Below are positions 13,188-23,394 of a stretch of DNA of 27,465 nucleotides, one piece after another. Below the pieces are notes generated by a model. The model saw nothing but the letters and a program-made list of their open reading frames with translations, ran no database searches and was not told the DNA's origin. The translations under genes were made by a program, and so were the position numbers. Numbering within the stretch: the first letter of the stretch is position 1; each line of letters begins with the position of its first letter. The DNA is taken from the sequence record SRR31156797_1970. One strand, given 5' to 3'.

Positions 13188-14081
13188 TTATTCAACAAGA
13201 AGCAAAGCAAGGGCATATTCCACTTTACCTTCATCCAGCCATCTTTTGGCTAAAAGTTGCAGTTCCTCTTCAAGATGAATAGGATCGCTTTTTAATTCTG
13301 AACATAAACCCTGCACCTCTTTTTCTGATTTGATATTCTGGATGTCTTCTGTACCGGGAAGTTCCTCAACATTTCCAAGTCGTCCAAGGTCGTTACCGGT
13401 GAGCACTTTGCTGAATTTTATTTTTTCAGGCAGGTTATCAATTCCAATTCCTTTTCTTGCCAAAGGCTTCTCAACCTCAAAAAGGCTTTCGCCAAACGCT
13501 TTCACGTAATAATCCCCGGCATGACGGCCAACCAGCCTGATTTTTTCAGGATGTGGAAGCCCGTTATCTCCCAGAATTTTTTCATGAAAATGGATCATTT
13601 TGATCTCGCAAATCACAAGGTTTGCTGATCCACCCCTTTCGCTGGTTTCAATTACATCGCGTACCACACACTCAAACTGAACGGGTGATTCCTTCACCCT
13701 GAATGGCCTTATGGTTTCTGAGGGTAGCGGGGTAAATCCCGCTTTGATAAACTCATTCACGCCTTTGTCATATTCAGTGCTGGCAAGACTGGCCTGTTGT
13801 ACAATTTCATAGTTTACCACGTTGATCACCACCTCCGGTACTTCTTTCACATTTTGGTAAGTATGTTTGGTGGTATTGTCGCGGCCACGCCTTGAGGGAG
13901 AAAAAATCAATGTAGTCGGGTTAATCCCAAAAGCGTTGAAAAAGCTAAAGGGAGCCAGGTTCGGGTTGCCATCCTTATCGATGGTGCTGGCAAAGGCAAT
14001 AGGCCGGGGAGCTATTGAACCGAGAATAAATTTATGTAATTGAGGCCCCGCAAGTTCTGTGGGAGATACCTTTTTGATCAT
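13188..14081 (-). CDS. Flavin reductase family protein (DIM6/NTAB-like) with Bacteroidota C-terminal extension
   Basis: IAPRPIAFAST...GNPNLAPFSFFN, KHTYQN, RVKESPVQFEC, VGRHAGDYY. Confidence 0.85.
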   Translation of the reverse strand: MIKKVSPTELAGPQLHKFILGSIAPRPIAFASTIDKDGNPNLAPFSFFNAFGINPTTLIFSPSRRGRDNTTKHTYQNVKEVPEVVINVVNYEIVQQASLASTEYDKGVNEFIKAGFTPLPSETIRPFRVKESPVQFECVVRDVIETSERGGSANLVICEIKMIHFHEKILGDNGLPHPEKIRLVGRHAGDYYVKAFGESLFEVEKPLARKGIGIDNLPEKIKFSKVLTGNDLGRLGNVEELPGTEDIQNIKSEKEVQGLCSELKSDPIHLEEELQLLAKRWLDEGKVEYALALLLVE

Positions 14082-14090
14082 ACGAGTCGA

Positions 14091-14131
14091 TTGTTGGTGT
14101 TGGTTATTCGTTATTGGTTATTCGTTATTTC
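14091..14131. repeat. Degenerate heptamer tandem repeat (TTATT[C/G]G)
   Basis: ttgttgg-tgttgg-ttattcg-ttattgg-ttattcg-ttatttc, ending 9 nt upstream of the flavin reductase ATG. Confidence 0.8.
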
Positions 14132-14235
14132 CAACTTGCTGAAGGTTCTGCGGGATATCCAGACCGCTAAAACTATTTTTCCAGTATCCATATTTGGCAA
14201 GATAAAATTTATAGCAAAGTGATTTGTCTAGCTTG

Positions 14236-14318
14236 TTTTTGACGCTGGAATATTCATCGGACGATTCCAGGTCAGGGTGTGACTTTCAATGGTGCGAGGC
14301 ACATTGAAACGTCAAAAA
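14236..14318. other. Unassigned structured element: perfect four-way junction or alternative two-hairpin fold
   Basis: TTTTTGACG/CGTCAAAAA encloses CTGGAAT/ATTCCAG, GTCA/TGAC and TTTCAAT-g-GTGC/GCAC-ATTGAAA, with no unpaired junction bases. Confidence 0.55.
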
Positions 14319-14419
14319 AAATAAAAAAAAGTTCGACATAAATTATCGGTAATTTACAAAGCAGTTAGTCAGAATTCGGTTATAGGTTACTATGAAATCG
14401 GAAATATACCAACCCACCC

Positions 14420-15706
14420 TTAAAAATCTCTGGCAGGCAGGATGGTAGTTCGGCATTCACCGAATCCAACTCTAACTCCCTCCTTCTCAGCAAAGCCCTT
14501 CATAACAATGGTGTCATGATCCTGGATAAATTTCCGCTCGGTCCCATCCGGCATTTGCAATGGCTTTGTTCCTTTCCAGGAAAGCTCGAGCATAGAACCA
14601 AAAGCTGATGGTGCCGGCCCGCTTATCGTTCCGGAGGCATACATGTCGCCGACATTGATGTTACACCCGGTAACCGTTTGGTGTGCCAACTGCTGAAACA
14701 TGTTCCAGTACATGTGTTTGAAATTTGACCTGCAAACACGGTGTGGTTTGAAGTTCTCATTTTCAAGCAAAACATCCAGTTTGATGTCGTAGTTCGAAGG
14801 GCCGTCAAATTTAAGGTATGGAAGCACCTCAGGCTCCTGTTTTGGGCCCTCAACCTTGTATGGCTCAAACGCATCCAGAGTTACTACCCATGGAGAAATA
14901 ACCGAAGCAAAATTCTTCGACAAAAAAGGCCCCAGTGGCACATATTCCCATTTTTGAATATCACGGGCTGAAAGATCGTTGAAAAGCACAAGTCCAAAAA
15001 TATGATCAGCAGCACCCTTCGGAGAAACCCGATCGCCTAAACTGGTTGCTTTTCCTGTAATGAAAGCCATTTCGAGTTCAAAATCCAATAACCTTGAAGG
15101 GCCAAAAGATGGTGAATCCTGATCGTTGGATTTGGTTTGGCCTACCGGCCGATGAACGTGAGTACCCGACACCACGATAGATGATGCCCTGCCATGATAG
15201 CCAACCGGGATGTGTTTCCAGTTGGGAAGCAACGCATTTTCGGGATCCCGAAACATTTTGCCAACATTGGTAGCATGCTCTTTACTTGAGTAAAAATCGG
15301 TGTAATCGCCCACTTCAACGGGCATCAACACTTCAACCTCATCAATGTGGTGAAAAACACCTTCACGAAAGTCATCAGTATTCCAAATTTCCTCATTTTC
15401 GTAAGTAAAAATATCTGAAAGCTTATCCCTCACTGCTCTCCATATGGGTTTTCCGAGTGCAATAAATGCATTTAAACTGGACTGTTTGAATACACCTGGG
15501 CTCGAAATACCCTCATCAATCAGGTAGCCTTTTTCGGCAATTGCAGCCAGGTCGATCACATGGTCTCCTATCCGGGTGCCGGCTCTGGGTGTTGTTCTGT
15601 TCCTGGGTTTAAATATCCCAAATGGAATATTTTGAATTGGAAAATCACTTCCATCCTCCACCATCAACCAACTTTTCAATTTCGGATTATTTGCTTTTAT
15701 CATCAT
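14420..15706 (-). CDS. fahA: Fumarylacetoacetase
   Basis: SDFPIQNIPFG, GDYTDFYSS.EHATN, YHGRASS, LDFELE, RDIQKWEYVPLGPF, GFGEC. Confidence 0.97.
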   Translation of the reverse strand: MMIKANNPKLKSWLMVEDGSDFPIQNIPFGIFKPRNRTTPRAGTRIGDHVIDLAAIAEKGYLIDEGISSPGVFKQSSLNAFIALGKPIWRAVRDKLSDIFTYENEEIWNTDDFREGVFHHIDEVEVLMPVEVGDYTDFYSSKEHATNVGKMFRDPENALLPNWKHIPVGYHGRASSIVVSGTHVHRPVGQTKSNDQDSPSFGPSRLLDFELEMAFITGKATSLGDRVSPKGAADHIFGLVLFNDLSARDIQKWEYVPLGPFLSKNFASVISPWVVTLDAFEPYKVEGPKQEPEVLPYLKFDGPSNYDIKLDVLLENENFKPHRVCRSNFKHMYWNMFQQLAHQTVTGCNINVGDMYASGTISGPAPSAFGSMLELSWKGTKPLQMPDGTERKFIQDHDTIVMKGFAEKEGVRVGFGECRTTILPARDF

Positions 15707-23240: not shown

Positions 23241-23307
23241 TTTTCAATTGATTTTTAGTCCAACAATGAATTAAAAATCAATAGAGGAAAAATAAGGTCA
23301 TGTAAGC

Positions 23308-23388
23308 CATATCCCTTCGCCGGCACTACCCGGATCAGGTGCAATGGGTATGATCTCAGCCCGTTGTTTGGGGCACCCCTATTGGATT
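23308..23388 (-). ncRNA. TPP riboswitch
   Basis: Minus strand GGGGTGCCCC...GGGCTGAGATCATACCC...ACCTGATCCGGGTAGTGCCGGCGAAGGGA carries the conserved CTGAGA, ACCTGA and GCGNAGGGA motifs. Confidence 0.95.
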
Positions 23389-23394
23389 CAGGTG

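What the first reader, a model, noticed from the sequence alone, without database searches (positions are those of the whole stretch)
14236..14318. Unassigned 83-nt perfect four-way junction with an alternative fold, downstream of the tyrosine-catabolism genes
Seen: P1 TTTTTGACG(14236-44)/CGTCAAAAA(14310-18), P2 CTGGAAT(14245-51)/ATTCCAG(14264-70), P3 GTCA(14271-74)/TGAC(14280-83) and P4 TTTCAAT-g-GTGC/GCAC-ATTGAAA(14284-309). All pairs are Watson-Crick and the junction has no unpaired bases. TGAC and GTCA each occur twice, so the sequence can instead form two separate hairpins, TGAC-g-CTGGAAT/ATTCCAG-GTCA and TGAC-TTTCAAT../..ATTGAAA-c-GTCA. No U-tract follows on either strand, so it is not a plain terminator. 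I do not recognise it as a tRNA, SRP RNA, hammerhead, NiCo or yybP element. Inference: a cis-regulatory RNA switch for the flavin reductase/cyclase genes, an sRNA, or a MITE/REP-like element with 9-bp terminal inverted repeats.
Basis: partly seen in the sequence, partly recalled or inferred. Interest (0 to 1): 0.7.

Follow-up and report, generated by a model that had tools for sequence, protein, structure and literature searches.

The report
Inverted pair of REP repeat units
The 83-base "four-way junction" is two inverted copies of a short palindromic repeat (a REP doublet) that is scattered through this Bacteroidales genome and its relatives, so it is an ordinary selfish-DNA insertion and not a switch for the neighbouring genes.

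Summary

The element is not a locus-specific RNA switch. Its two hairpins are inverted copies of one 35-nt unit, with 24 of 35 bases identical and the bulges in register.

- **Other copies in the same run.** Other contigs of the run that holds this DNA match only parts of the element.
- **Copies in relatives.** A covariance model built from units in related genomes finds tens of copies per genome. It hits 17 of 23 genomes of the closest family, 8 of 151 in an order sample and only the reference genome in a 151-genome phylum sample. Most copies are inverted pairs with the tagged ends outward.
- **Covariation.** It supports the two separate hairpins, not the four-way junction.
- **No synteny.** The orthologous spacer carries no unit in any of the 16 genomes of that family that have the downstream gene, including one with 88% protein identity.
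- **Cognate transposase.** In several relatives the same units flank a divergent REP-associated tyrosine transposase gene.

Verdict: this is a REP doublet (REPIN-like) of a family I did not find described. It is a new member of a known kind, of modest interest.

The parts
14236..14318 (.). Whole REP doublet (REPIN-like), 83 nt. It holds two inverted units, a 5-nt spacer, and outward tags TTTTTGACG and CGTCAAAAA.
   Evidence: Sequence. The two model hits together span 14235-14319. 21 doublets of 81-98 nt with the same plan occur in related genomes.
14240..14274 (-). Left REP unit, 35-nt core, read on the - strand. Its apical stem is partly decayed compared with the family consensus.
   Evidence: Model R1 scores 53.8 bits, E 1e-11, at 14235-14279 on the - strand. 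It is 24/35 identical to the other unit when one is reverse-complemented, against 17/35 in direct orientation.
14275..14279 (.). 5-nt spacer (GGGTG) between the two units.
   Evidence: Sequence. Spacers in other doublets run from about 3 to about 25 nt and differ in sequence.
14280..14314 (+). Right REP unit, 35-nt core, read on the + strand. Its apical stem is GTGC/GCAC where the family mostly has GTCC/GGAC.
   Evidence: Model R1 scores 58.5 bits, E 7e-13, at 14275-14319 on the + strand. The opposite strand scores only 8.4 bits.
14319..14335 (.). A-rich flank (A8TA8 together with the unit's own A-run). It is not part of the repeat.
   Evidence: Other contigs of run X1 that match the element diverge after 14316 or 14319 (table 7). 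Flanks of other doublets tend to be T-rich on the left and A-rich on the right.
14420..15706 (-). Upstream neighbour: fumarylacetoacetase. Its stop codon lies 101 nt before the element in the direction of transcription.
   Evidence: Pfam FAA_hydrolase and FAA_hydrolase_N.
13188..14081 (-). Downstream neighbour: flavin-reductase-like protein. Its start codon lies 154 nt after the element.
   Evidence: Pfam Flavin_Reduct. Orthologues follow fumarylacetoacetase directly in relatives.

Best explanation
The element is a REP doublet, that is, two inverted copies of a palindromic repeat of about 40 nt. Read with its tag at the 3' end, each unit consists of:
- a 3-4 bp foot (GAC/GTC);
- a 7-bp arm;
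- a bulged base;
- a 4-bp apical stem (mostly GTCC/GGAC) with a 3-4 nt loop;
- the motif CGTC followed by an A-run.

The left unit lies on the - strand and the right unit on the + strand, so the tagged ends face outward. This is why the ends read as a 9-bp inverted repeat, and why a four-way junction can be drawn.

The family is non-coding, mostly extragenic and present in tens of copies per genome in one family of Bacteroidales. In relatives the same units flank a divergent REP-associated tyrosine (HUH/Y1) transposase gene.

What is shown and what is inferred:
- **Shown:** the repeat identity, the doublet plan, the conserved hairpins, the lack of synteny, and the transposase adjacency in relatives.
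- **Inferred, mobility:** the transposase probably spreads the units as single-stranded DNA hairpins, and this copy landed in a spacer that is short or absent in more distant relatives.
- **Inferred, local effect:** if the copy is transcribed with the tyrosine-catabolism genes, its two stable hairpins would at most protect the upstream message from 3' exonucleases or damp read-through into the flavin-reductase-like gene. I rate a selected local function as unlikely, about 15%.
For: **Inverted copies of one unit.** The two hairpins are 24/35 identical in inverted orientation and 17/35 in direct orientation, with the bulges in register. Model R1 scores them 58.5 bits (+) and 53.8 bits (-).

**Multi-copy in the holding run.** Of 13 contigs of X1 laid, one covers the whole 901 nt with no difference. 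At least four others match only 14237-14273, 14268-14319, 14280-14317 or 14281-14316, and have mean depths of 357-568 against 330. Their loose ends show variant copies of both units.

**Copies in related genomes.**
- BLAST of the 83 nt found 8 of 401 genomes of the order at E<=0.01, including a full-length 71% match.
- R1 found 30, 12 and 10 matches in three genomes.
- R1 hit 17 of 23 genomes of the closest family, with 1-83 matches each and only 150 candidates scored per genome.
- R1 hit 8 of 151 genomes in an order sample, and 1 of 151 in a phylum sample, the reference genome only.

**Hairpin covariation.** In 37 units, 91.7% of cells are paired, 10 of 15 pairs change on both sides, 71 such cells were counted against 18.5 in shuffles, and 0 of 500 shuffles reach the covariation score.

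**Doublet plan.** 21 doublets of 81-98 nt share the plan T-run, GACG, unit, spacer, unit, CGT(C/T), A-run.

**Extragenic position.** 25 of 27 sites lie outside ORFs of at least 100 aa. Of 17 spacers with both neighbours called, 11 are unidirectional, 4 convergent and 2 divergent.

**Not syntenic.** There are 0 R1 hits in 15 orthologous loci and none in the G321 locus or the four closest metagenome loci. The spacer ranges from 6 nt to about 340 nt among relatives.

**Transposase link.**
- An ORF in G062 carrying NHFH and YIHNNP motifs is flanked by R1 doublets on both sides and holds an R1-like unit inside it.
- Homologues occur in 18 of 23 family genomes.
- R1 units lie beside the gene in 4 of 23 such loci, including the two best-scoring homologues.
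- NCBIfam 'REP-associated tyrosine transposase' matches at E 8e-15 to 5e-13.
- The best PDB match is E. coli TnpA-REP, 4ER8, at E 0.005.
Against: - The window's own genome is not held. Its copy number and its transposase gene could not be checked directly, and no homologue lies in the 27-kb window.
- Run X1 may be the source of this DNA and its contigs may include other organisms. Summed depth is not a copy number.
- The transposase association is partial. 19 of the 23 homologue loci have no R1 unit within 1.5 kb. One genome with a close homologue (G414) has no R1 match, and some repeat-rich genomes have only distant homologues.
- The NCBIfam scores of 49-55 bits are below the model's 80-bit cut-off.
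- No mobility event, empty site or target duplication was seen.
- Nothing is known about transcription.
- The first 10 units used to build the model were picked with a folding-energy filter, and the later alignments are fitted to the model. Both lean towards the hairpin.
Confidence: 0.85

Rival explanations
1. It is a cis-regulatory RNA, either a riboswitch or an attenuator. It would sit in the transcript between fumarylacetoacetase and the flavin-reductase-like gene and toggle between the four-way junction and the two hairpins.
For: Two near-isoenergetic folds exist. It lies between two co-oriented genes that are adjacent in relatives. Folding is well above shuffles.
Against: - It has no Rfam match, even at E<=10.
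- It is absent from the orthologous spacer in 16 related genomes and 4 metagenome contigs.
- The same unit occurs between unrelated genes in tens of copies.
- Across 21 doublets the pairs specific to the four-way junction are not kept. P3 has 12 mismatches in 63 cells and P1 has 3 mismatches plus 11 G-U, while the intra-unit feet are Watson-Crick in 124 of 126 cells.
Confidence: 0.03
2. It is the same repeat, but this copy has been co-opted. Its hairpins would stabilise the 3' end of the homogentisate-pathway message or partly uncouple the downstream gene, as some enterobacterial REPs do inside operons (recalled knowledge).
For: - It lies 101 nt after the stop codon of the upstream gene on the transcribed strand.
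- The hairpins are stable on that strand, at -27.8 kcal/mol.
- Of 17 spacers holding units, 15 are unidirectional or convergent, so the unit would be transcribed there.
- Relatives have the two genes 6-21 nt apart, which suggests co-transcription.
Against: The closest relative (88% identity) manages without it. No expression data exist. The location pattern is equally expected for a neutral insertion that avoids promoters.
Confidence: 0.12
3. It is a classical MITE, a deletion derivative of a DDE-type insertion sequence, recognised through its 9-bp terminal inverted repeats.
For: It has 9-bp perfect terminal inverted repeats and a small size.
Against: - The terminal repeats are simply the ends of two inverted units.
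- Single units occur alone: 6 of the 13 regions that were picked as single best hits.
- No flanking direct repeat appears in 21 doublets.
- The neighbouring enzyme in relatives is a Y1/HUH type, which makes no target duplication (the last point is recalled).
Confidence: 0.03
4. It is an intrinsic, possibly bidirectional, transcription terminator for the tyrosine-catabolism genes.
For: It has strong GC-containing hairpins downstream of a gene.
Against: The T-run lies before the hairpins and the A-run after them on both strands, which is the reverse of a terminator. The terminator scan lists nothing at this position.
Confidence: 0.03

Closest known systems
REPINs (REP doublets forming hairpins) with their RAYT transposases. 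Sources seen: Bertels & Rainey 2011, PMC3116915 and PMC3337134 (search-listing abstracts only); Quentin et al. 2018, PMC6006769 (passages).
   Same: - Short imperfect palindromic units.
- Two units in inverted orientation with a short spacer.
- Tens of extragenic copies.
- The same units flank a single-domain HUH/Y1 transposase gene in relatives.
- The transposase carries NHFH and YIH(Q/N)NP motifs, like Quentin's Bacteroidetes subclasses 2.4 and 2.6.
- One copy has a unit inside the transposase gene between the two motifs, a trait described for subclass 2.4.
   Different: - There is no 5' GTAG or GTGG tetranucleotide. The conserved end is CGT(C/T) plus an A-run at the 3' side.
- The stem has three segments with two bulges.
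- The host is Bacteroidales, not Proteobacteria.
- Pfam Y1_Tnp misses the enzyme (0 hits for two homologues, 17.5 bits for the third).
- The transposase could not be sought in the window's own genome.
CGTC-tagged REPs (Di Nocera et al. 2013, PMC3733652; abstract, passages and section 16 read; figures not held).
   Same: - A CGTC motif at one end of the palindrome.
- Units mostly paired with the tags outside, the paper's 'HH dimers'.
- Heterodimers of two unit subtypes.
- Location between unidirectional and convergent genes.
- The paper reports such repeats in one Bacteroidetes species.
   Different: - The paper's families have 8-9 bp stems, 4-5 nt loops, an unpaired tag, a CCA tail and no linked transposase.
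- Here the stem is 14-15 bp with bulges, the loops are mostly 3-4 nt, three of the four tag bases pair with the foot, and the tail is an A-run.
- Here a RAYT-like gene is flanked by the units.
- I could not verify on which side of the hairpin the paper's tag lies.
Enterobacterial BIMEs, made of Y and Z REP types in alternating orientation (recalled; also mentioned in PMC6006769 passages).
   Same: Doublets are often built from two unit subtypes. Here the feet are GAC/GTC and AAC/GTT, and 14 of 21 doublets are mixed.
   Different: The sequences are unrelated. No protein-binding motif between the units has been identified.

Membership tests
REP / REPIN | Short (about 20-40 nt) imperfect palindromic unit with a conserved hairpin | tested here: met
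   The core is 35 nt. In 37 units 91.7% of cells are paired and 10 of 15 pairs show compensatory change.
REP / REPIN | Many dispersed, mostly extragenic copies in one genome | tested here: met
   Relatives carry up to 83 matches per genome, and 25 of 27 sites lie outside ORFs. In the run holding this DNA, other contigs match parts of the element. The window's own complete genome is not held.
REP / REPIN | Two units in inverted orientation separated by a short spacer | tested here: met
   In the window the units are - then + with a 5-nt spacer. 21 further doublets share the plan.
REP / REPIN | A cognate RAYT gene flanked by the same units (REPtron) | tested here: inconclusive
   Met in relatives G062, G410, G403, G406, and weakly in G415. 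It could not be tested in the window's own genome, and 19 of 23 homologue loci lack units.
REP / REPIN | 5' GTAG/GTGG guide tetranucleotide at the foot | tested here: not met
   The alignment of 37 units shows (G/A)AC at the 5' foot and CGT(C/T) plus an A-run at the 3' end. There is no GTAG.
CGTC-tagged REP super-family (Di Nocera 2013) | Unpaired CGTC motif at one end | tested here: inconclusive
   CGT is present in 35 of 37 aligned units, but GTC pairs with the GAC foot and only the C is bulged. The side of the tag in the paper's figures could not be seen.
CGTC-tagged REP super-family (Di Nocera 2013) | Stem of 8-9 bp, loop of 4-5 nt, 3-nt CCA tail | tested here: not met
   Here the stem is 15 pairs in three segments, the loops are mostly 3-4 nt and the tail is an A-run.
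CGTC-tagged REP super-family (Di Nocera 2013) | Dimers with the tags outside predominate | tested here: met
   Searches gave 11 and 13 -/+ pairs. The only close +/- pair seen is inside one trimer.
MITE | Terminal inverted repeats plus a target-site duplication | tested here: not met
   Inverted ends are present, but no flanking direct repeat appears in 21 doublets.
Intrinsic terminator | GC-rich hairpin followed by a T-run on the transcribed strand | tested here: not met
   The A-run follows the hairpins on both strands, and the scan lists no site here.
Any Rfam family | Match at or near the gathering score | tested here: not met
   The best overlapping match is a Plasmodium RUF1 model at 19.6 bits against a gathering score of 70, E 0.39.

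The most novel reading that the evidence does not exclude
This doublet belongs to an undescribed REPIN-RAYT system of Bacteroidales. Its features would be:
- The REP unit is a three-segment bulged hairpin ending in CGTC plus an A-run, instead of starting with GTAG.
- Doublets are often built from two foot subtypes.
- The transposase is so divergent that Pfam's Y1_Tnp model misses it.
- The transposase can itself carry a unit in-frame.

If the CGTC end is the cleavage or guide motif, this would give a CGTC-ended REP family a dedicated transposase. A 2013 survey did not find one for its CGTC families.
Probability: 0.45. Interest if true: 0.45.

Novelty: new member of a known kind. Interest (0 to 1): 0.3.

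Why it matters
- **For this window.** The finding removes a false lead. The striking junction is a by-product of two inverted repeat units, not a regulator of tyrosine catabolism or of the flavin-reductase and cyclase genes.
- **For the repeat family.** It documents a REP family, with a usable covariance model, in a group of uncultured Bacteroidales. REPIN-RAYT systems have mostly been studied in Proteobacteria.
- **For genome scans.** Such repeats break metagenome assemblies; several copies and transposase fragments sit at contig ends. They also mimic structured RNAs, so recognising them improves both annotation and motif discovery.
- **For the transposase question.** The link to a divergent tyrosine transposase offers a testable case of how REPs without a GTAG tag are recognised.

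Tried and rejected
- **No genome or earlier notes.** No whole genome is held for the window. Earlier-findings look-ups by sequence and by genome returned nothing.
- **Rfam.** Nothing relevant at the locus. The whole window holds only a TPP riboswitch.
- **Repeats in the window.** No second copy of the element. R1 finds only the two units, and the next best hit is 15 bits.
- **Distant relatives.** The spacer found only poly-T words in 80 fumarylacetoacetase loci at no more than 68% protein identity. Only a 35-nt leader match appeared in 80 metagenome loci.
- **Named relatives.** The element is not found in five MAGs titled Bacteroidales. R1 is not found in five further named relatives.
- **Sequencing runs.** No RNA holder is listed. 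Run X2 laid nothing.
- **Pfam-detectable Y1_Tnp genes.** R1 gave one 28-bit hit in 40 loci. That hit is a different palindrome by eye. Y1_Tnp occurs in 21 of 23 family genomes, including 5 of the 6 without R1 matches, so it does not track the repeat.
- **Empty site.** The window spacer and the spacer of the 88%-identical relative align only over the last 25 nt or so before the start codon, so no empty site could be defined.
- **Target duplication.** None was seen.
- **Promoter.** The recalled Bacteroidetes promoter consensus (TTTG, 17-23 nt, TAnnTTTG) has no exact match in the spacer. It has 3 matches in the window against 2.4 expected. The sigma-70 scan gave one weak site on the - strand at 14200-14172.
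- **Literature.** Four searches found no paper describing this family. Subscription journals are not covered. The supplements of PMC3733652 gave species names only.
- My first unit-finding script was too strict and printed an edge artefact. It was replaced.

Full report
**Observation.**
The 83 nt fold much better than dinucleotide shuffles on both strands. The + strand gives -30.0 kcal/mol (z -4.26) and the - strand -27.8 kcal/mol (z -6.21), with 0 of 200 shuffles as good in each case.

With DNA parameters a four-way junction is the minimum (-22.3). T5 precedes the element and A8TA8 follows it on the + strand, so no hairpin is followed by a T-run on either strand. The terminator scan lists nothing at this position.

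**Setting.**
Both neighbours lie on the - strand: fumarylacetoacetase (14420-15706) upstream and a flavin-reductase-like gene (13188-14081) downstream. Hydroxyphenylpyruvate dioxygenase and a homogentisate-dioxygenase-like gene lie further upstream, and a lycopene-cyclase-family gene further downstream. The spacer is 338 nt.

Rfam has no match for the element. The only Rfam family in the window is a TPP riboswitch at 23295-23390 on the - strand.

**The two hairpins are one unit, twice.**
Each hairpin core is exactly 35 nt and is closed by TGAC/GTCA. Reverse-complementing one and laying it on the other gives 24 of 35 identities without gaps, with the two bulged bases in register. In direct orientation the figure is 17 of 35.

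The differences inside the stems are compensatory: CTGGAAT/ATTCCAG against TTTCAAT/ATTGAAA. The element is therefore an inverted doublet of one palindromic unit.

**It is a dispersed repeat.**
No whole genome is held and the window has no further copy. One public run (X1, kept as contigs, possibly the source of this DNA) holds the region.

Thirteen of its contigs were laid at 80% likeness or more:
- One contig (51,592 nt, depth 330) covers all 901 nt without a difference.
- Contigs of 79, 1,025, 141,392 and 15,630 nt (depths 568, 358, 356, 375) match only 14237-14273, 14268-14319, 14280-14317 and 14281-14316.
- Their loose ends show variant copies of both units with a different linker.
- The copies diverge from the window after 14316 or 14319.

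Summed depth is not a copy number, and other organisms may contribute. Even so, the element is clearly not unique in that sample.

**Relatives.**
Fumarylacetoacetase relatives in species-representative genomes reach only 67-68% identity. They are MAGs titled Bacteroidales and share no spacer sequence with the window.

BLAST of the 83 nt against 401 genomes of that order gave 8 genomes at E<=0.01. One was a full-length 71% match, and several were 79-84% matches to one half. From ten units found this way I built alignment A1 and covariance model R1. The ten were picked with a folding-energy filter, which is a bias.

R1 results:
- 30, 12 and 10 matches in three genomes, with only 150 candidates scored per genome.
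- Matches in 17 of 23 genomes of the taxonomic family of G321 at E<=1e-4, with 1 to 83 each.
- 8 of 151 genomes in an even sample of the order at E<=1e-6.
- Only G321 itself among 151 genomes in a phylum sample. This also serves as a specificity control.
- 0 of 5 further named relatives.

That family contains the closest relative of the window's organism. G419 has a flavin-reductase-like protein at 88% identity and G421 one at 80%.

**Structure conserved by covariation.**
In a model-fitted alignment of 37 units from the window and three genomes:
- 91.7% of cells form standard pairs, against 77% in shuffles and 23-46% with slid partners.
- 10 of 15 pairs change on both sides.
- 71 cells carry double changes, against 18.5 in shuffles.
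- 0 of 500 shuffles reach the covariation score.

The foot itself covaries: GAC/GTC in 22 units and AAC/GTT in 12.

In 21 doublets, 14 combine the two foot types. Pairing counts:

| Pairing | Watson-Crick | G-U | Mismatch | Cells |
|---|---|---|---|---|
| Intra-unit feet | 124 | 0 | 2 | 126 |
| Junction P1 | 49 | 11 | 3 | 63 |
| Junction P3 | 49 | 2 | 12 | 63 |

What is conserved is the pair of separate hairpins. The four-way junction is possible in the window's copy only because both of its units have the same foot type.

**Family anatomy.**
All 21 doublets are 81-98 nt. They read T-run, (G/A)ACG, unit, GTC, a spacer of about 3 to about 25 nt, (G/A)AC, unit, CGT(C/T), A-run. The left unit is always on the - strand and the right on the + strand, so the tags face outward.

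Of 13 regions that I fetched as single best hits, 7 proved to be such doublets and 6 were single units. No flanking direct repeat was seen. Left flanks tend to be T-rich and right flanks A-rich.

With a crude ORF call, 25 of 27 sites lie outside ORFs of 100 aa or more. Of 17 spacers with both neighbours called, 11 are unidirectional, 4 convergent and 2 divergent.

**Not syntenic.**
Fumarylacetoacetase is followed directly by the flavin-reductase-like gene in relatives, but the spacer length varies widely:
- 6 and 8 nt in distant metagenome loci;
- about 21 nt in G321;
- about 55 nt in L084/G420;
- about 230 nt in G419;
- 260-270 nt, with quite different palindromes, in L081 and L083/G421.

R1 finds no unit in 15 orthologous loci, nor in G321's locus or the four closest metagenome loci. 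The window's spacer aligns with G419's only over the last 25 nt or so before the start codon. The doublet is thus a recent, lineage-specific arrival in a fast-changing spacer.

**A cognate transposase in relatives.**
Genes detectable with Pfam Y1_Tnp are common, in 21 of 23 family genomes, but they do not sit next to the units. R1 gave one 28-bit hit in 40 loci, and that hit is a different palindrome.

Inspecting clusters of units gave a better lead. In G062 a 180-codon ORF (P0001) is flanked by R1 doublets 13 nt upstream and 143 nt downstream. It contains an R1-like unit between its NHFH and YIHNNP motifs. It stops at a TAG where homologues have the W of DYPWTSY, so this copy may be broken.

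Further evidence on the homologues:
- Homologues occur in 18 of 23 family genomes.
- R1 units adjoin the gene in 4 of 23 loci examined: both sides in G410 (an intact 228-aa ORF), 17 nt after the stop in G403, a contig-end fragment in G406, and weak units on both sides in G415.
- In G419 a C-terminal fragment lies at a contig start, with a doublet about 870 nt away.
- These proteins match NCBIfam 'REP-associated tyrosine transposase' at E 8e-15 to 5e-13, 49-55 bits, below the 80-bit cut-off.
- Pfam does not match them.
- Their best solved relative is E. coli TnpA-REP, 4ER8, at E 0.005.
- No homologue lies in the window.

The motifs resemble those that Quentin et al. tabulate for the Bacteroidetes subclasses 2.4 and 2.6. 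That paper says their genes are flanked by long or atypical structures with copies elsewhere in the genome, and that subclass 2.4 carries REP insertions inside the gene (PMC6006769, passages read).

**Comparison with known kinds.**
The element works like a REPIN, a REP doublet presumably mobilised in trans by a RAYT. It does not carry the GTAG tag that defines classical REPs.

It resembles the CGTC-tagged REPs of Di Nocera et al. (PMC3733652; abstract, passages and section 16 read) in several ways: the end motif, the predominance of doublets with the tags outside, heterodimers, and location. It fails that paper's dimensions, which are 8-9 bp stems, 4-5 nt loops and a CCA tail. It also fails the paper's statement that CGTC repeats lack a linked transposase.

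Four literature searches found no description of this family.

**Mechanism, with odds.**
- Identity as a dispersed REP-type doublet: about 0.9.
- Spread by the RAYT-like enzyme acting on single-stranded hairpins: about 0.6. This is inferred from adjacency and from what is known of the enzyme family.
- Any selected role of this particular copy for the neighbouring genes: about 0.15. If the copy is transcribed, its hairpins could shield the upstream message or damp read-through.
- A ligand-sensing switch: under 0.05.

**Verdict.**
The finding is of modest interest.

Noticed in passing
window 23295-23390 (-): TPP riboswitch, 67.6 bits against a gathering score of 54.3.
   Followed up: no
window 14100-14129: A tandem repeat lies in the leader just before the start codon of the flavin-reductase-like gene. 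It has a 14-nt unit x2.1, or a 7-nt unit x3.9, and is A/C-rich on the coding strand. Similar A/C-rich repetitive leaders precede the orthologues in L081, L083 and G419. Other contigs of run X1 also match 14098-14128, where summed depth is 882 against 330.
   Followed up: partly
L081 about 2230-2500; L083/L300 spacer; L302 spacer: The same fumarylacetoacetase to flavin-reductase spacer holds quite different palindromes in other species. One is a perfect GC-rich hairpin of more than 20 bp with a TTCG loop in L083/L300. Another is a CCCGATAG..CTATCGGG hairpin in L081. The spacer looks like a landing pad for several repeat families.
   Followed up: partly
L213, L225, L231, L216 (genome G293): In G293 the unit is part of a longer composite repeat. 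That repeat also carries a CCCGATAGTTATCGGG-type hairpin, the palindrome type seen in L081's spacer.
   Followed up: no
L319 1927-3662 (G422:C7): Two doublets with identical model scores flank a 306-aa YhcG-type PDDEXK nuclease gene. This may be a duplicated or mobilised segment.
   Followed up: no
L315 2478-3140 (G062:C4): The RAYT-like gene carries an R1-like unit in-frame between its HUH and Y motifs. It has a TAG where homologues have a conserved tryptophan, and the frame continues with recognisable C-terminal sequence.
   Followed up: partly
L287, L292, L296 (G405, G420): Doublets of one subtype sit inside a larger inverted repeat whose arms are shared between loci. This suggests nesting in a longer element.
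   Followed up: no
L318 2846-3148 (G418:C918): A ParE-toxin-family ORF lies between REP units on a 3.6-kb contig.
   Followed up: no
window 14625-14717, 13927-14005: Other contigs of run X1 match short parts of the two flanking genes at under 90% likeness (table 8). These are probably paralogues or other organisms.
   Followed up: no
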